NCBI GenBank assembly: GCA_050740915.1
Contig: JBOIEG010001140.1
Span: 1 to 35,994, forward strand
Direction of reading: 5' to 3'
Length of the DNA: 35,994 nt
DNA from: Gammaproteobacteria bacterium
Lineage (GTDB): Bacteria > Pseudomonadota > Gammaproteobacteria > JBOHHR01
Below the pieces are notes generated by a model. It ran no database searches. It saw only the letters and a program-made list of their open reading frames with translations, and had not been told where the DNA came from. Below, piece after piece: positions 4,271 through 35,774 of the stretch; within the stretch, counting starts at the first letter, position 1; the number at the start of each line of letters is the position of its first letter. The translations under genes and the position numbers were made by a program.

Positions 4271-4289
4271 TGCGACAATTTGTCGCATT
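4271..4289. promoter_or_regulatory. Candidate operator: 17-bp palindrome TGCGACAA-T-TTGTCGCA (copy 1 of a 19-bp element shared with 6655-6673)
   Basis: tgcgacaatttgtcgcatt is identical at 4271-4289 and 6655-6673. It has 8-bp perfect arms. It lies 21 bp upstream of a TATACT hexamer (4310-4315) and upstream of the aminotransferase-remnant/MbtH unit. Confidence 0.45.
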
Positions 4290-4324
4290 CCCTTTTGGGC
4301 CGTTATCTTTATACTGGACGCTCA

Positions 4325-34500: not shown

Positions 34501-35774
34501 GCTTGCAAGCCACCTTTGAATACAATGCGGATCTGTTCAATGCCGGCACCATAGAAGCCATGGCCGGCCGATATGCAGCGCTCTTGCAACAAGTCATCGA
34601 CTACCCTGCGATTGGCTTGTCCGATCTGGCTGAGTTAAGCGTCCCCATCGATGCCAGGGTGAAACATCGGTCGGCGCCGCCGTTCACGCGAACGCCGCGC
34701 CCGGATCGCGCGGCGCCACGTAACCTATTCGAGCAACGCATGGTGGAGTTATGGGCGCGGGCGCTAGGGAAGTCACGCCTCAGCATTCACGATGATTTCT
34801 TCGAATTAGGGGGCTATTCCCTACTCGCTTTTCGCCTGGTGCAGCGGATCCGCGAGGAGTTCGGGACGGAGCTTTCGCTTGCCGCCTTTTTCCAGGGACC
34901 CACCATCGCTGAGCTCGTATCCCGGCTTTTGAGCGGTCCGGATGGCGGCAACGCATCGCTTATTACCTTGCGTGACGGTCCCGCCCATCGCCCCTTGTAT
35001 TGCATGCACACCGGCACCGGTCATGCGCGTGATTATCGGCCGCTGGTGGCCGGCTTGGGTTGTGATCGCAAGGTCTATGGAGTACCGCTACCGGCGTTTG
35101 TCGATCCAGGGTTGGCGAGTCGATCGATGGACGTCTTGGCTGGCGGCTACGCGGCCAGCTTGCGGCGCGAGACACCGAGTAAGCCCTATATTCTAATCGG
35201 ATGGTCCCTCGGGGGACTGATCGCTCTGGCGGTTGCGGGGGCGCTGGAGCGCATGGGGGAGACACTCGCATTCGTTGGGCTCATCGATACCGATGCGCCG
35301 GATCCCGCCGGCGATTGGCGCCAGCGTTTCGCACCTTATCTGCACGAGTCGGCTGAACGGGCGCGCTTGAAGGCGTTAGCGCCCTGTGAGCGCCGCGAGT
35401 TGGAGATTGAGTTGCAAGCGCTGCCGGAAGAGGCATGGTCGGCTCATGTCGCCGCGTGGGGCAGGGCACGGGGCTATTGGTTTAATGACATCTCGCCCGA
35501 GCTGTTGCGCATGGACGTCGCGCTCTGGCGCCACATCGAGGTGTTGGAGGATAGCTTTACACCACCCTGCCTACGCGCGCCGCTGCACGTATGGTGGGCA
35601 AGAGACTCGCTCGACGACCGCGGATGTCCCCCAACCGACTGGAGCGCATGCACGAGTGCAGGCGTGCATGTTCAAGTCGTAGACGGCAATCACGGCGATA
35701 TCATTCGAAATCCCGATCTTCACTCGGCTCTTCAACATAAGCTCGATCGCATACCAACGGACCGAACGGTGTGA
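25545..35774 (+). CDS. NRPS3 (3409 aa): C-A(Ser)-T-E-C-A(unassigned)-T-C-T-TE
   Basis: Uninterrupted 10,230-nt ORF. ATG 25545 overlaps the NRPS2 stop (25553-25555) by 11 nt. Confidence 0.95.
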   Translation: MAASSGRRLPLSAAKQALLQRYLRGEVGRGASVISKRGAGPIPLSYQQHRLWVLEQLSAGSGAYHISAAYRLRGVLDIEALSSAFSEVARRHEVLRTRIDATAPEPQQLVDPAVEVDIGVSNLGARSEGEALKQLEADAARPFDLATGPLWRVRLWELSKQGEESEYLLLFVCHHIVFDGCSTEVLFRELAALYGAYRQGKAPPLAELPIQYTDYAPWQRRWLSGERLQRELEHWRARLEGTSGVLDLPTDQVRPPLASYRGASHDFSLSAEIGARLKALARQERVTPFVLLLTVFKTLLYRYSAQHDLCIGTPVANRLPVETEELIGCFVNTVVLRTPVSGQMRFKEHLLRVRQACVEAQAHQQLPFDRLLEALGLARDTSRNPLVQVMFTFHEGPRHAMALAGLTVAPVALAVRSAQFDLALEMRQTTQGLQGSLIYATDLYVASTASRIAQCFQCLLASVVAQPDARLCDLPLLGDKELNLLQQWNVSYPGACVPQLIEAQAARAPDVTAIVFAGEQLSYTELNRRANRLARHLRALGVGPDAIVGVCLARSIELVVSLLAVLKAGGAYLPLEPEYPAERLAYMLRDAGAVLVLTTSELRIRLPEGATPCLCLDEQVLSTQAEENLEPLAIPPHLAYVIYTSGSSGRPKGVAVPHQGLSNRILWMQDYFALVPSDVVLQKTPFGFDVSVWEFFWPLTIGACLALARPGEHREPERLIARIQRERVTTLHFVPSMLAALLESQGHLGDSVRRVVCSGEALSAALAAQFFQTQQAGLYNLYGPTEASIDVSVFACRPDPARGGVPIGRPIANTQLYILDQVLNPVPVGLPGELYIGGAGLARGYLGRPSLTAERFVPNPLGEPSTRLYKTGDRARYLSDGNIEFLGRLDAQVKIRGNRIELGEVEARLLEYADVRQACVIAQAGGSGGSRLVAYVVMGDSALDAEALKRHLAATLPEYMLPSAFIALEALPISSNGKLDRKALPAPESAPCEPTAAPRNTLECRLLAIWVSVLGLEQIGIHDNFFALGGDSIGCIQVVSRTRQSGLLLSTRDLFEHPTIAALAKAVRLDIGAMAKQGPVSGPVPLTPIQCWFFDQALPNPHHWNQAVLLTVRADITPAILERAAERLIVHHDALRHRFVFEDGQWRQACLAADAAPAVGRVDLSWVPSGERSTAIEALASEWHGRLRLDEGPLLHMIWMDLGETYRLLVIIHHLVVDGVSWRILLEDLEAACRQILAGKPVCLADESASFKRWSERLRGYADSGALQPEIPYWRGLAAKTMQPLPVDNPQGANVESCTKTVAVSLDPEATRWLLRDALPPYRLQVADLILTALAQVLGAWSASRVIALDLEGHGREELFPGLDSSRTIGWFTTLFPVRLEIPADPSPCAALKAIKEQLRGIPSKGIGYGLLHYLRGRGELAMRPAQVRFNYLGQWDQTLARDSLFAFAAEPVGRCFEPTGTRAYELDVTAFVVCGQLRIEWRYGRSRHRRDTVSKLAADLLLRLRGLLAHCMSPQVGGYTPSDFPLAGLAQADLDRLAAAEPGISDIYPLTSLQQGMVFHSEFSPESGAYVQQMSCVLRGALDVRVFRAAWQHVFNHHAMLRTEFLLDGVATPLQVVRERVNVPLALQDWRTLSKEAQGAQWNALLQADQAQGFAYARPPLARLMLVQTQDRRYRFLWSHHHALLDGWCVGLILGEVFQAYNAIQRGEVPRLTAPRPYRDYVAYLLRQDQDAARAFWRSIFAGFDSPAALGIGEKASAAAGGSGYAERSVDLSHPVTQRLVTFAKQHGLTLNTVLQGAWAVLLGRYSGEREVVFGVTVSGRPAELPGVESMIGLFINTLPLRVELPPGERIVHWLARLMRQNAELRQYEHTPLVDLRRLAEVPGRQPLFESIVVFENQPWHRALPSHGLEIEHAAFSERTHYPLTLVGVPGDAMSIRMAYDTSRFADEVIERLLAHFETLLQEIVQQPEALLSALSLMPAHEMRRLAAGNATGWPPPEGNIVSWFEEKAQEAAETLAVECEGERLSYGELNRLANRVATGLIERGIGGERLVAVAADPTVERVIVLLGILKSGAAYVPLEPEQPKRRWQEILEEARPDLVLVSPEHTGKVPEGWACAPLDSGLSAFARQAEQNPAVPIAGEQLAYVLYTSGSTGKPKGVAVRHAGLSNRVSWGVQRFGWGPRDRVLQHTVLGFDVAGWEIWGALVAGARLVIANEKVQRDPERLVDRMMEQGVTWMEAVPSLLQALLEVSGFDQCRRLRGIGCGGEALSGELQRRVRERLPWVGLYNLYGPTEVTIDATLWTCGDDGEPVPIGRPISNAQAYLLDRDLNAAPVGVAGELYIGGAGLARGYLRRPEFTAERFLPNPFGPPGTRLYRTGDRGRYRADGAIEFLGRIDHQIKLRGYRIELGEVEARLCIHPAVKEACAVLSEAEHERRLVAYVVAEGVSADELRRYLSEHLPGYMLPAAFVFLPTLPLTPAGKRDRKALPAPGAAMANTYAAPRNLSEQSLAEVWADVLGLARVGIHDNFFDLGGHSLTAMQVIARIRHVFRREVALRALFDAPTVAALAAKMVCAAGEIQGSLPAIRAVSRGRSLRLSFAQQRLWFLHQMDPRSAAYNVPLAFRFRGRLDLAALESAINEVVDRHEVLRTVFLLCGDEPMQRIQASCRVPLAVTDLRHLPEQARWPQAKDEVRKAAELPFDLAVGPVLRVRLWCLGQQTGEEEHLLFWVCHHVCFDGWSADVLARELIALYHAFETGRPSPLALPPIQYADYAQWQRQWLSGARLEKELAYWKAQLAGASGVVDLPTDRVRPALLGSRGASYRFFLSAGLTLALRRLGRTQGVTPFMVLMAAFKTLLHCYSGQRDLIVGTPVANRTALETEGLIGCFVNMLVLRTRVKEDDRFLDLLEQVRDVCLSAQAHQQLPFERLVEALRLARDMSRNPLVQVTFQLQHAAVAAVSEPALIPVELSRTSAQFELSLDLAEAEGGLQATFEYNADLFNAGTIEAMAGRYAALLQQVIDYPAIGLSDLAELSVPIDARVKHRSAPPFTRTPRPDRAAPRNLFEQRMVELWARALGKSRLSIHDDFFELGGYSLLAFRLVQRIREEFGTELSLAAFFQGPTIAELVSRLLSGPDGGNASLITLRDGPAHRPLYCMHTGTGHARDYRPLVAGLGCDRKVYGVPLPAFVDPGLASRSMDVLAGGYAASLRRETPSKPYILIGWSLGGLIALAVAGALERMGETLAFVGLIDTDAPDPAGDWRQRFAPYLHESAERARLKALAPCERRELEIELQALPEEAWSAHVAAWGRARGYWFNDISPELLRMDVALWRHIEVLEDSFTPPCLRAPLHVWWARDSLDDRGCPPTDWSACTSAGVHVQVVDGNHGDIIRNPDLHSALQHKLDRIPTDRTV
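25670..26960 (+). other. NRPS3 domain: condensation C1 (LCL-like)
   Basis: PLSYQQHRLWVLEQ; HHIVFDGCS (26064-26090). Confidence 0.8.
27010..28500 (+). other. NRPS3 domain: adenylation A1, code DVWHVSLIDK (Ser)
   Basis: YTSGSSGRPKG, FDVSVWE, NLYGPTEASID, GKLDR (Lys codon 28476-28478). One position differs from the Ser code DVWHLSLIDK. Confidence 0.8.
28545..28750 (+). other. NRPS3 domain: T1
   Basis: FFALGGDSIGCIQ; Ser codon 28638-28640. Confidence 0.85.
28790..30080 (+). other. NRPS3 domain: epimerization E
   Basis: PLTPIQCWFFDQ; HHLVVDGVSWRILLEDL (29181 onward). Confidence 0.85.
30170..31480 (+). other. NRPS3 domain: condensation C2 (DCL-like)
   Basis: ISDIYPLTSLQQGMVFH; SHHHALLDGWC (30585-30617). 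Confidence 0.8.
31540..33010 (+). other. NRPS3 domain: adenylation A2, code DVWEGGLIDK (not matched to a code I know)
   Basis: YTSGSTGKPKG, FDVAGWE, NLYGPTEVTID, GKRDR (Lys codon 32985-32987). Glu at position 278 and Asp at 331 suggest a cationic side chain, but no assignment is made. Confidence 0.7.
33055..33260 (+). other. NRPS3 domain: T2
   Basis: FFDLGGHSLTAMQ; Ser codon 33147-33149. Confidence 0.85.
33320..34620 (+). other. NRPS3 domain: condensation C3 (LCL-like) of the A-less terminal module
   Basis: LRLSFAQQRLWFLHQ; HHVCFDGWS (33732-33758). Confidence 0.8.
34725..34930 (+). other. NRPS3 domain: T3, directly after C3
   Basis: APRNLFEQRMVELWARALG...FFELGGYSLLAFR; Ser codon 34818-34820. 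It starts only about 30 codons after the end of C3. Confidence 0.8.
34950..35771 (+). other. NRPS3 domain: thioesterase TE
   Basis: PLYCMHTGTGH, GWSLGG (Ser codon 35205-35207), GNHGDII near the C-terminus. Confidence 0.8.

What the first reader, a model, noticed from the sequence alone, without database searches (positions are those of the whole stretch)
4271..35774. FAAL-primed seven-module lipopeptide assembly line built from a pyoverdine/corrugatin-type toolkit
Core motifs give FAAL-T-C-A-T-C-A-T-C | hydroxylase | C*-A-T-E-C-A-T | C-A-T-E-C-A-T-C-T-TE. Hand-extracted specificity codes are DILQLGLVWK (Gly), DIWELTADDK (Dab-like), DSALIAEVWK (His-like), DFWNIGMVHK (Thr, exact), DVWHVSLIDK (Ser) and DVWEGGLIDK (unassigned). 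The predicted chain is acyl-Gly-Dab?-D-(beta-OH?)His?-Thr-D-Ser-X-Y. C-domain subtypes agree with the E-domain positions: the YP.....GM.FH-type N-terminal motif follows E domains, and the LS.AQ.RLW type follows non-epimerised residues. FAAL start, PvdH, PvdQ, MbtH, Dab, hydroxy-His and Ser/Thr together recall lipopeptide siderophores of the corrugatin type and pyoverdine precursors. The module order matches no compound I know. No receptor or exporter gene is in the window.
Basis: partly seen in the sequence, partly recalled or inferred. Interest (0 to 1): 0.7.

Follow-up and report, generated by a model that had tools for sequence, protein, structure and literature searches.

The report
Orphan hydroxyhistidine lipopeptide metallophore gene cluster
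This is an intact 29-kb, three-protein assembly line that should make a fatty-acid-capped seven-residue peptide containing a metal-binding hydroxy-histidine; it is an uncharacterised member of a known siderophore class, and two of its helper genes are deleted to stubs while its transport genes are missing.

Summary
N1 (6744-16760) is FAAL-T-C-A(Gly)-T-C-A(Dab)-T-C. A TauD-type hydroxylase follows at 16773-17825. N2 is C*-A(His)-T-E-C-A(Thr)-T. N3 is C-A(Ser)-T-E-C-A(X)-T-C-T-TE.

New here: "C*" is a non-catalytic interface domain (TALCADP in place of HHxxxDG). [quoted passage not shown] This places the cluster in the beta-hydroxyhistidine NRP-metallophore class.

Corrections:
- "PvdH" and "PvdQ" are internally deleted remnants.
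- The D-type C-domain rule has one exception: C2 follows Gly, with no E domain.
- An IS1182 transposase starts 107 nt after the TE stop.
- The nearest relatives (48-50% over N1) are uncharacterised acyl-Ser-Dab-OHHis clusters of Methylocapsa and Methylotetracoccus, not Pseudomonas corrugatin clusters (hydroxylase 56-58%).

A6 (DVWEGGLIDK) stays unassigned, and the last module has no A domain. Only one chelating residue is predicted. The core genes show purifying selection (dN/dS 0.05-0.31).

Verdict: a real, ordinary-class orphan cluster with a probably new product. Interest is modest.

The parts
4271..4287 (.). 17-nt palindrome TGCGACAATTTGTCGCA, copy 1. It lies 38 nt upstream of the ATG at 4326 of the DABA-transaminase remnant (55 nt start to start).
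   Evidence: An exact 19-nt repeat with 6655-6673. 4 strand hits against 0.12 expected.
4326..5085 (+). Remnant of a PvdH-type diaminobutyrate-2-oxoglutarate transaminase. It has an internal deletion of about 210 residues, and its two pieces (to 4846; 4753-5085) are in different frames.
   Evidence: Pfam Aminotran_3 positions 9-108 and 330-402 of 403. NF005393 positions 25-165 and 378-466 of 469. A sister strain (L087) lacks 4327-4973 as well.
5114..5350 (+). MbtH-like protein, intact.
   Evidence: Pfam MbtH 1-53/53, 84.6 bits.
5455..5842 (+). Remnant of a penicillin-amidase-family (Ntn) acylase. Only the N-terminal 25 and C-terminal 76 residues survive.
   Evidence: tblastn of the 801-aa L083 acylase: aa 21-45 at 5455-5529 and aa 710-785 at 5615-5842. 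Pfam positions 616-666 of 675. The same deletion is in Logan contigs L087-L089 from three other samples.
5835..6620 (-). Sfp/HetI-type 4'-phosphopantetheinyl transferase, intact, divergent from N1.
   Evidence: Pfam ACPS plus AASDHPPT_N. NF042922 HetI, 156 bits.
6655..6671 (.). 17-nt palindrome, copy 2. It lies 72 nt upstream of the N1 ATG (89 nt start to start), in the PPTase/N1 divergent spacer.
   Evidence: The variant TGCGACAAAATGTCGCA sits in the same spacer of relatives L083-L085.
6744..8513 (+). N1 FAAL (fatty acyl-AMP ligase) starter domain.
   Evidence: NF004509 FAAL 446 bits and PvdL model positions 3-585. PDB FAAL structures 7r7f, 3kxw, FadD32/23/28.
8565..8801 (+). T0 acyl carrier domain (GLDSL).
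8856..10223 (+). C1, starter-type condensation domain (HHIAVDLWS).
   Evidence: 32-34% identity to the L-type C3, C6 and C8.
10284..11723 (+). A1, code DILQLGLVWK (Gly). It lies in a low-GC tract (9700-12300).
   Evidence: Its nearest A domains are Gly domains at 53-55%. GC is 0.52-0.59 against 0.62-0.68 in the flanks.
11808..11990 (+). T1 (LGGDSV).
12141..13463 (+). C2, D-donor-type C domain (YPLGPMQEGMLFH; HHILLDE). It follows the Gly module, which has no E domain.
   Evidence: 41-43% identity to C5 and C7.
13536..15002 (+). A2, code DIWELTADDK (Dab).
   Evidence: The same code is in the second module of corrugatin-type Pseudomonas loci and in the Methylocapsa and Methylotetracoccus relatives.
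15084..15272 (+). T2 (LGGHSL).
15348..16637 (+). C3, L-type C domain (HHIVFDGWS). It is the catalytic C of module 3, at the C-terminus of N1.
16773..17825 (+). Fe(II)/2-oxoglutarate hydroxylase of the His beta-hydroxylase (IBH_His) type. It carries HNE...H motifs.
   Evidence: Pfam TauD 146.8 bits. Sequence. All 80 nearest genome homologues precede an interface domain plus a His A domain.
17822..19129 (+). N2 start (GTG 17822, GTGA overlap with the hydroxylase stop, GGAG about 8 nt upstream) and the interface domain. This domain has a C fold, with TALCADP in place of HHxxxDG.
   Evidence: 75 of 75 homologous domains also lack HHxxxDG.
19190..20620 (+). A3, code DSALIAEVWK (His, beta-hydroxylated).
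   Evidence: [quoted passage not shown]
20705..20890 (+). T3 (LGGDSI).
20963..22246 (+). E1 epimerisation domain (HHLVADGLSW).
22349..23674 (+). C5, D-donor-type C domain (HHHALLDGWC).
23735..25186 (+). A4, code DFWNIGMVHK (Thr).
25265..25453 (+). T4 (LGGHSL).
25674..26987 (+). C6, L-type C domain (HHIVFDGCS). N3 starts at 25545 and overlaps the N2 end by 11 nt.
27045..28481 (+). A5, code DVWHVSLIDK (Ser).
28560..28745 (+). T5 (LGGDSI).
28818..30029 (+). E2 epimerisation domain (HHLVVDGVSW).
   Evidence: 43% identity to E1 over N3 aa 1092-1495.
30195..31505 (+). C7, D-donor-type C domain (HHHALLDGWC).
31560..32987 (+). A6, code DVWEGGLIDK, substrate unassigned. Core motifs are intact.
   Evidence: Its nearest A domains are Ser-type at 47-50%. 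The code is absent from 951 other A domains and from the searched literature.
33069..33251 (+). T6 (LGGHSL).
33330..34646 (+). C8, L-type C domain (HHVCFDGWS) of the A-less last module.
34749..34922 (+). T7 (LGGYSL), a carrier with no cognate A domain. Only 35 residues separate it from C8.
34989..35714 (+). Type I thioesterase (GWSLG). The N3 stop is at 35772-35774.
   Evidence: Pfam Thioesterase 79 bits..
35882..35994 (+). N-terminus of an IS1182-family transposase, cut by the window end. It marks the 3' boundary of the cluster.
   Evidence: tblastn 76% identity to annotated IS1182 transposases, 66 plasmid records.

Best explanation
The window encodes a co-transcribed, translationally coupled operon, N1-hydroxylase-N2-N3 (6744-35774). 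It should assemble an N-acylated heptapeptide of the beta-hydroxyhistidine NRP-metallophore class.

Inferred order of events:
1. The FAAL adenylates a fatty acid and loads it on T0.
2. The starter C domain joins the acyl group to Gly.
3. C2 adds L-Dab.
4. C3, at the end of N1, condenses onto His carried by N2. While His sits on T3, the stand-alone Fe/2-OG hydroxylase beta-hydroxylates it. The hydroxylase is docked by the non-catalytic interface domain at the N-terminus of N2.
5. E1 epimerises the residue, and the D-type C5 adds L-Thr.
6. N3 adds Ser, which E2 epimerises. The D-type C7 follows, and then residue X from A6.
7. C8 joins the chain to a seventh residue on T7. T7 must be loaded in trans, either by A6 acting twice or by an unseen A/A-T enzyme as in syringomycin SyrB1/SyrC.
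8. The TE releases the product.

Predicted product: acyl-Gly-L-Dab-D-(beta-OH)His-L-Thr-D-Ser-L-X-Y.

The cluster belongs to an uncharacterised sub-family with a conserved acyl-(Ser/Gly)-Dab-OHHis head, found mainly in methanotrophs. Here the Dab-supply transaminase and the deacylating acylase are destroyed, and any transport genes are absent beside an IS1182 element. Production would therefore depend on genes elsewhere, and the product would stay acylated.

Shown: domain order, catalytic motifs, specificity codes, cassette conservation, the gene remnants, and purifying selection. Inferred: substrates, stereochemistry, timing of hydroxylation, trans-loading, and metal binding.
For: - Domain order and motifs.
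- Specificity codes: with the GrsA control.
- FAAL identity.
- In 80 of 80 genome loci found with the hydroxylase, a His-code A domain lies about 1.3 kb downstream (78 exact, 2 one substitution off).
- The intervening C-like domain lacks HHxxxDG in 75 of 75 loci.
- Interface domains and IBH_His are accepted markers of NRP metallophores (antiSMASH 8; eLife 2026).
- The Dab code is identical to that of corrugatin-type Pseudomonas loci.
- N1 is collinear at 48-50% identity over about 3,290 aa with Methylocapsa aurea, M. acidiphila and Methylotetracoccus proteins. N2 is 43% identical to the M. acidiphila successor gene.
- Relatives carry Ser-Dab | hydroxylase | His, a TonB-dependent receptor (L090), and an ABC exporter plus acylase plus PPTase (L002).
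- Tight gene packing with a GTGA overlap.
- dN/dS is 0.31, 0.22 and 0.05 with no indels over 2,818 nt against a 97.6%-identical sister contig.
- A shared palindrome sits upstream of both transcription units.
Against: - Only one obviously chelating residue (OH-His) is predicted. There is no Asp, hydroxamate or catechol module or tailoring gene.
- There is no TonB receptor or exporter in the window.
- No Fur box lies within 3 mismatches of the consensus.
- The Dab transaminase and the acylase are remnants, and an IS element abuts the 3' end. The pathway may therefore be incomplete.
- The A6 substrate is unknown.
- No loader for T7 was found.
- No product has been observed. The Reitz 2019 paper that defines the interface domain could not be read here.
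Confidence: 0.7

Rival explanations
1. The cluster is a decaying relic. The NRPS genes are still intact, but the pathway no longer makes a functional product. Dab supply, deacylation and transport have been lost, and an IS element has cut the 3' side.
For: - Both the transaminase and the acylase have large internal deletions.
- A sister strain has lost a further 650 bp.
- Neighbouring genes are also broken. The C39 peptidase has an in-frame stop, and the FilC-like OMP is frameshifted.
- An IS1182 transposase starts 107 nt after the TE stop.
- No transporter is present.
Against: - About 28 kb of NRPS coding sequence has no stop or frameshift, and every catalytic motif is intact.
- dN/dS is 0.05-0.31 with no indels against a 2.4%-diverged sister sequence.
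- MbtH and the PPTase are intact.
- The same deletions occur in several samples, so strains carrying them persist.
- The missing functions could be supplied from elsewhere in the genome, for example by EctB-type transaminases.
Confidence: 0.18
2. The product is a bioactive lipopeptide (antibiotic or surfactant) rather than a metallophore. The single OH-His would then be a structural feature, not a ligand set.
For: - Only one potential chelating residue is predicted.
- There is no Fur box.
- There is no receptor gene.
- The cationic Dab, the lipid tail and the mix of D and L residues resemble membrane-active lipopeptides (inference).
- An A-less terminal C-T-TE is known from syringomycin-type toxins (own knowledge).
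Against: - Every one of the 80 nearest hydroxylase loci has the metallophore-type interface-His cassette.
- Close relatives carry a TonB-dependent receptor.
- The Methylocystis plasmid relative carries further chelating modules: a second His and a hydroxy-ornithine-like code.
- IBH_His is used as a metallophore-specific marker.
Confidence: 0.1
3. The cluster is an orthologue of a known Pseudomonas pathway, either a pyoverdine precursor line (PvdL-like) or the corrugatin, ornicorrugatin or histicorrugatin cluster.
For: - The FAAL start resembles PvdL positions 3-585.
- It shares the Dab code and the His cassette with corrugatin-type loci.
- MbtH, a PvdH-type remnant and an acylase remnant lie beside it.
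Against: - The PvdL model scores 578 against a cut-off of 4090 and covers only the FAAL part.
- There is no Glu or Tyr module, so no chromophore can form.
- In corrugatin-type loci the His module directly follows the FAAL and hydroxylase, followed by Dab and DSAELGTVDK. Here Gly and Dab precede a single His.
- Hydroxylase identity to P. corrugata, P. mediterranea and P. brassicacearum is only 56-58%.
- The nearest acylase homologue is not a PvdQ equivalog (33 bits against 950).
Confidence: 0.02

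Closest known systems
Corrugatin / ornicorrugatin / histicorrugatin clusters of Pseudomonas (ornicorrugatin BGC0003174)
   Same: - FAAL-primed lipopeptide NRPS.
- Stand-alone TauD-type His beta-hydroxylase followed by interface domain and A(His, DSALIAEVWK).
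- A Dab module with the identical code DIWELTADDK.
- Classed as NRP metallophores through IBH_His.
   Different: - OH-His is residue 1 there and residue 3 here.
- Those products have two OH-His plus OH-Asp as ligands (own knowledge). Here there is one His and no Asp code.
- The downstream modules differ: DSAELGTVDK there, Thr-Ser-X-Y here.
- Hydroxylase identity is only 56-58%.
- The terminal module here has no A domain.
Uncharacterised FAAL-Ser-Dab | hydroxylase | His clusters of Methylocapsa aurea, M. acidiphila B2, M. palsarum, a Methylotetracoccus MAG and the Methylocystis bryophila plasmid CP019949
   Same: - Same gene order, and the same N1 architecture (FAAL-T-C-A-T-C-A-T-C).
- N1 is 48-50% identical over about 3,290 aa. 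The hydroxylases are 59-63% identical. N2 is collinear with the M. acidiphila gene (His-Thr) at 43%.
- The acylase, PPTase, ABC exporter or TonB receptor are nearby in relatives.
   Different: - The first residue is Gly here and Ser there. The A1 region has low GC and sits nearest to Gly A domains of other lineages.
- The tails differ. The Methylocystis plasmid has a second His and a hydroxy-ornithine-like code.
- The accessory genes are deleted here.
- None of these clusters has a known product, so they are the closest sequences but not a characterised family.
Pyoverdine precursor synthetase PvdL with PvdH, PvdQ and MbtH
   Same: - FAAL-initiated NRPS that incorporates Dab.
- A DABA transaminase, an MbtH-like protein and an Ntn acylase are encoded alongside. 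In pyoverdine, the acylase removes the acyl chain after export (for the PvdQ role).
   Different: - There are no Glu or D-Tyr modules, so no chromophore can form.
- The PvdL model matches only the FAAL part.
- The transaminase and acylase are remnants here.
- The ancestral acylase is not a PvdQ equivalog.
Cyanochelin C pathway (FAAL start plus cluster-encoded acylase CcsQ giving a non-acylated siderophore)
   Same: It has a FAAL start and a cluster-linked Ntn acylase. It shows that such clusters may release a deacylated product. Relatives of this window keep an intact acylase.
   Different: Cyanochelins use beta-OH-Asp and other hydroxylase clades. In this window the acylase is deleted, so the acyl chain should stay on.
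Syringomycin synthetase SyrE terminal module (C-T-TE loaded in trans by SyrB1/SyrC)
   Same: Both have a terminal A-less C-T-TE module in a proteobacterial lipopeptide line that also uses a TauD-type beta-hydroxylase (own knowledge).
   Different: No SyrB1, SyrB2 or SyrC-like gene is in the window. The resemblance is architectural only and was not tested.

Membership tests
NRP metallophore, beta-hydroxyhistidine (IBH_His) class | NRPS with condensation and adenylation domains | tested here: met
   Pfam Condensation, AMP-binding and PP-binding in all three large ORFs.
NRP metallophore, beta-hydroxyhistidine (IBH_His) class | Stand-alone Fe(II)/2-OG hydroxylase of the IBH_His clade | tested here: met
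   Pfam TauD. The antiSMASH pHMM itself was not available. As a proxy, all 80 best genome homologues (52-63% identity) are followed by an interface domain and a His-code A domain, never an Asp code.
NRP metallophore, beta-hydroxyhistidine (IBH_His) class | Interface domain (C fold without the catalytic HHxxxDG) N-terminal to the A domain of the hydroxylated residue | tested here: met
   The window has TALCADP at the HHxxxDG position. 75 of 75 homologues also lack the motif. Identity to the window's true C domains is at most 25%.
NRP metallophore, beta-hydroxyhistidine (IBH_His) class | His-specific A domain | tested here: met
NRP metallophore, beta-hydroxyhistidine (IBH_His) class | Cognate TonB-dependent receptor or exporter in the cluster | tested here: not met
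   None is in the window. The 3' side is cut by IS1182. Both are present in relatives L090 and L002.
NRP metallophore, beta-hydroxyhistidine (IBH_His) class | Metal-responsive regulation and metal binding by the product | tested here: inconclusive
   No Fur box lies within 3 mismatches. A conserved palindrome of unknown regulator sits in both promoters. Metal binding is not testable in silico.
Corrugatin family | Acyl chain attached directly to beta-OH-His (His module first after FAAL and hydroxylase) | tested here: not met
   Pseudomonas loci run FAAL - hydroxylase - His - Dab. The window runs FAAL - Gly - Dab - hydroxylase - His.
Corrugatin family | Two His modules plus an Asp module (three bidentate ligands) | tested here: not met
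   One His code and no DLTK-type Asp code occur among the six A domains. The product composition of corrugatin is taken from my own knowledge.
Corrugatin family | Dab module | tested here: met
   DIWELTADDK is identical in the window and in P. corrugata-group loci.
Pyoverdine (PvdL-type precursor line) | FAAL-Glu-D-Tyr-Dab order giving the chromophore; PvdL model at or above its cut-off | tested here: not met
   The order is Gly-Dab with no Tyr. NF004282 scores 578 bits against a cut-off of 4090 and covers positions 3-585 only.
Pyoverdine (PvdL-type precursor line) | Functional PvdH and PvdQ | tested here: not met
   Both are internal-deletion remnants. The nearest intact acylase scores 33 bits against the 950-bit PvdQ cut-off.
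Syringomycin-type trans-loaded terminal module | A-less C-T-TE end | tested here: met
   C8 (to aa 3034), T7 (from aa 3069, LGGYSL) and the TE, with no room for an A domain.
Syringomycin-type trans-loaded terminal module | Stand-alone A-T loader and aminoacyl shuttle (SyrB1/SyrC-like) | tested here: not met
   None is in the window. The rest of the genome is not available, so the absence is not conclusive.

The most novel reading that the evidence does not exclude
The conserved acyl-(Ser/Gly)-Dab-(OH)His head may define a new metallophore family tied to copper-dependent methane and ammonia oxidisers. The nearest hydroxylase homologues are enriched in Methylocapsa, Methylocella, Methylosinus, Methylocystis, Methylotetracoccus, Methylococcales and Nitrospira. 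In relatives that keep the acylase, deacylation would expose H2N-X-X-His. That is the classical ATCUN Cu(II)/Ni(II)-binding motif. The family could therefore act as a non-ribosomal chalkophore rather than, or in addition to, a siderophore. The window's strain, with its acylase deleted, would be a natural lipidated variant. A single OH-His is a poor Fe(III) ligand set but fits a Cu(II) site. This reading rests on inference. Only the module order, the acylase linkage and the taxon list are observed.
Probability: 0.05. Interest if true: 0.8.

Novelty: new member of a known kind. Interest (0 to 1): 0.33.

Why it matters
If expressed, the cluster should give a lipopeptide with a residue order not found in the literature I could search. 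It would also be the first handle on an uncharacterised sub-family (acyl-Ser/Gly-Dab-OHHis...) that is shared by methanotrophs of two proteobacterial classes.

The cluster is also a natural experiment. The deacylase and the Dab-supply gene are deleted, yet the 28-kb synthetase stays under purifying selection. This bears on whether acylation in FAAL-primed metallophores is transient or functional.

Three smaller features offer concrete tests:
- the unassigned A6 code;
- the A-less last module;
- a probable C-A-T unit replacement (Ser to Gly) marked by a GC dip.

None of this changes the general picture. It is one more orphan NRPS cluster of a well-described class.

Tried and rejected
- Full-length N3 as a protein-search query timed out.
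- The C8-T7-TE query found no orthologue. The best hits were 48-52% identical over the C-T part only. A-less C-T-TE proteins at 33-36% sit in an unrelated PKS context.
- An exact 41-mer from the 3' end was absent from JGI metagenomes.
- A protein-guided metagenome scan gave only relatives at or below 49%, none sharing the C-T-TE end, so the DNA downstream of the TE could not be recovered.
- Exact look-ups of window proteins found only contigs of 1-3 kb from Logan. The source genome and its flanks remain unknown.
- The context of PPTase homologue P0128 was unrelated to NRPS. P0246 was not on record.
- The whole-library search with A6 was dominated by mega-synthetases. None of 951 extracted A domains carries DVWEGGLIDK. 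The nearest codes are 2-3 substitutions away and point in different directions (Ser, Gln, Orn), so no substrate call was made.
- Literature searches for the A6 code and its fragments found nothing.
- No Fur-box consensus was found.
- The high PDB score of A1 against LgrA is the sum of two A domains, not unusual similarity.
- The identity dip of A1 against the Ser-type relatives is modest (32-45% against 51-60% between the relatives). The domain-swap idea is therefore supported mainly by GC content.
- Reitz et al. 2019 (PMC6778253) is not held, so the interface-domain concept is cited second-hand.
- Lactuchelin was considered and rejected as a match. It has OH-Asp, Ser and hydroxy-ornithine and no His.

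Full report
**Observation.** The window has four tightly packed + strand ORFs: N1 6744-16760 (3338 aa), a 350-aa ORF at 16773-17825, N2 17783/17822-25555 and N3 25545-35774 (3409 aa). Pfam finds Condensation, AMP-binding, PP-binding, TauD and Thioesterase domains. Internal BLAST with one copy of each domain places every copy. The resulting order is:
- N1: FAAL-T-C1-A1-T-C2-A2-T-C3
- TauD hydroxylase
- N2: Cx-A3-T-E1-C5-A4-T
- N3: C6-A5-T-E2-C7-A6-T-C8-T-TE

The N-terminal 590 residues match fatty acyl-AMP ligase models and structures. All eight carrier domains keep the serine, including T0 (GLDSL) and the last one (LGGYSL). The TE has GWSLG, and the A-domain core motifs are present.

**Specificity codes.** I aligned the six A domains to GrsA-PheA, whose own code DAWTIAAICK came out correctly as a control. 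After hand-correcting positions 330/331 around a three-residue insert in A2 and A4, the codes are:

| Domain | Code |
|---|---|
| A1 | DILQLGLVWK |
| A2 | DIWELTADDK |
| A3 | DSALIAEVWK |
| A4 | DFWNIGMVHK |
| A5 | DVWHVSLIDK |
| A6 | DVWEGGLIDK |

These are identical to the hand-extracted ones. Gly, Thr and Ser follow from the canonical codes (own knowledge). [quoted passage not shown] DIWELTADDK is the code of the module after His in the P. corrugata, P. mediterranea and P. brassicacearum loci, whose products contain Dab (own knowledge).

A6 remains unassigned:
- Its nearest A domains are Ser-type at 47-50%.
- The code differs from Ser at three pocket positions (H278E, V299G, S301G).
- It is absent from 951 other A domains and from the searchable literature.
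- An acidic residue at 278 and a widened pocket suggest a basic side chain. That is inference only.

**C-domain types.** Pairwise identities split the ten C-fold domains into four groups: {C3, C6, C8} plus the starter C1; {C2, C5, C7}; {E1, E2}; and Cx alone. C2 is of the same type, yet it follows the Gly module, which has no E domain. It is harmless, because Gly is achiral. None of the three has the extra HH motif of dual E/C domains. The predicted configuration is Gly, L-Dab, D-His, L-Thr, D-Ser, L-X.

**What "C*" and the hydroxylase are.** Cx has TALCADP where catalytic C domains have HHxxxDG. I fetched 80 genome loci with the hydroxylase as query and extracted every A-domain code.
- In all 80 loci the A domain about 1.3 kb downstream of the hydroxylase carries DSALIAEVWK (78 exact, 2 one substitution off).
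- In 75 of 75 cases the C-like domain between them lacks HHxxxDG.

This is the stand-alone His beta-hydroxylase plus interface-domain arrangement. antiSMASH uses it as a marker of NRP metallophores. The hydroxylase keeps an HNE...H iron-binding pattern. Its stop overlaps a GTG start of N2 (GTGA, with GGAG about 8 nt upstream). The catalytic C of the His module is C3, at the end of N1.

**Accessory genes.**
- The transaminase matches only positions 25-165 and 378-466 of a 469-position PvdH-type model, in two frames.
- The acylase keeps residues 21-45 and 710-785 of an intact 801-aa homologue. That homologue lies in the same convergent position next to the PPTase in a metagenomic relative, L083. 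It is only distantly PvdQ-like.
- MbtH and the HetI-type PPTase are intact.

The deletions are real and not an assembly artefact. Contigs from three other sequencing runs (98% identical) carry the same acylase deletion, and one has lost a further 650 bp of the transaminase. Downstream, an IS1182-family transposase begins 107 nt after the TE stop. There is no receptor or exporter in the window.

**Is the synthetase alive?** The three NRPS genes have no disruption. Against a 97.6%-identical contig from another sample (2,818 nt, no indels), dN/dS is 0.31 for C3, 0.22 for the hydroxylase and 0.05 for the interface domain. This argues for continued selection on the core. Neighbouring unrelated genes, in contrast, carry a stop and a frameshift.

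**Relatives.**
- The closest hydroxylases (59-63%) are from Methylocapsa aurea, M. acidiphila, M. palsarum and a Methylotetracoccus MAG. Pseudomonas corrugatin-type hydroxylases are 56-58% identical.
- N1 is collinear with the Methylocapsa and Methylotetracoccus proteins at 48-50% over about 3,290 residues. N2 is 43% identical to the M. acidiphila successor.
- These relatives, and two further metagenomic ones, encode FAAL-Ser-Dab | hydroxylase | His (-Thr). A Methylocystis bryophila plasmid has the same front end and a longer tail with a second His and a hydroxy-ornithine-like code.
- Relatives carry a TonB-dependent receptor or an ABC exporter, acylase and PPTase.
- A wider protein search again lists Beijerinckiaceae, Methylococcales, Methylosinus, Methylocella and Nitrospira among the best named hits.

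I found no paper describing a product for any of these clusters. The window differs from them in having Gly instead of Ser at position 1. The A1 region lies in a GC dip (0.52-0.59 against 0.62-0.68, about 9700-12300). Its nearest relatives are Gly domains of other lineages. This suggests replacement of a C-A-T unit, although the identity profile is only mildly supportive.

**Mechanism and its weak points.** The most likely product is acyl-Gly-Dab-D-(OH)His-Thr-D-Ser-X-Y, released by the TE. Three points are open.
1. **T7 has no A domain.** Either A6 loads two carriers, or a loader lies outside the window, as in syringomycin (own knowledge).
2. **Dab supply and deacylation must come from elsewhere or are lost.** Cyanochelin C shows that FAAL-primed clusters with a linked acylase can release a non-acylated siderophore. 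Loss of the acylase here predicts a permanently lipidated product.
3. **Only one chelating residue is predicted, and no Fur box is present**. The metallophore assignment therefore rests on the cassette and on relatives, not on the ligand count.

A 17-nt palindrome (TGCGACAATTTGTCGCA) occurs upstream of both the transaminase remnant and N1. A one-position-shifted variant lies in the same spacer of the 60%-identical relative. It probably marks a common, unidentified regulator.

**Comparison and verdict.** This is not a pyoverdine line. It has no Tyr module, and the PvdL model hit is limited to the FAAL. It is also not a corrugatin-family member, because His is at position 3, there is a single His, and there is no Asp. 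It works like those systems at the level of lipo-initiation and His hydroxylation. It is best filed as a new, orphan member of the beta-hydroxyhistidine lipopeptide metallophore class, within an uncharacterised methanotroph-associated sub-family.

The speculative ATCUN/copper reading is not excluded, but no direct evidence supports it. Under that reading, deacylation in relatives would expose H2N-X-Dab-His.

Interest is modest. The deleted helper genes, the A-less last module and the unassigned A6 code are the points worth following.

Noticed in passing
window 4271-4287 and 6655-6671; L083 426-440: An exact 19-nt repeat contains the palindrome TGCGACAATTTGTCGCA. It lies upstream of both the transaminase remnant and N1 (0.12 matches expected by chance). 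The variant TGCGACAAAATGTCGCA lies in the PPTase/NRPS spacer of a relative whose PPTase is 60% identical. It is probably an operator for an unidentified regulator, and it is not Fur-like.
   Followed up: partly
window 102-422: A small ORF encodes a Gly/Pro-rich peptide (...MSNADLDSVYGG|GGPGVGPGGPGGGPGVGPGG...CGGH). It has a possible double-glycine leader and imperfect 21/33-nt tandem repeats. No Pfam or NCBIfam family matches it. It sits directly upstream of a C39 peptidase.
   Followed up: partly
window 551-1462: A FapD/FilB-like C39 peptidase is interrupted by an in-frame stop at 1166-1168 (the two pieces, 551-1168 and 1226-1462, are in the same frame). It is probably a pseudogene.
   Followed up: partly
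window 1566-2833: A FilC/MetA-pathway-like outer-membrane protein is split over two frames (1566-2165 and 2102-2833). This is either a frameshift or a pseudogene.
   Followed up: no
window 3259-4132: A TacA-like antitoxin (3259-3576) overlaps a GNAT TacT-like toxin (3524-4132). This toxin-antitoxin pair lies just upstream of the cluster.
   Followed up: no
window 35882-35994: The N-terminus of an IS1182-family transposase (76% identical to annotated copies) starts 107 nt after the TE stop. A weak terminator-like hairpin lies at 35807-35824.
   Followed up: yes
window about 9700-12300: A GC dip (0.52-0.59 against 0.62-0.68) spans the acceptor half of C1, A1 (Gly) and T1. The relatives have Ser at this position. 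This suggests a recombinational C-A-T unit replacement.
   Followed up: partly
L087 1763-1929 against window 4159-4326 and 4974 onward: A 98%-identical strain from another sample lacks window 4327-4973. Its deletion starts right after the transaminase start codon, with about 8 nt of overlap at the junction. This locus has therefore been deleted repeatedly.
   Followed up: partly
L002 12884-15027; L093 14064-16563: Relatives also show broken genes inside their clusters. The acylase is split in the Methylotetracoccus MAG, and an NRPS module is split into C and A-T pieces on the Methylocystis bryophila plasmid.
   Followed up: no
one search hit list; L045: Hydroxylase homologues at 58-63% identity are enriched in methanotrophs (Alpha- and Gammaproteobacteria) and in Nitrospira/Nitrospirales. 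This points to horizontal spread among organisms that share habitats or copper enzymes.
   Followed up: no
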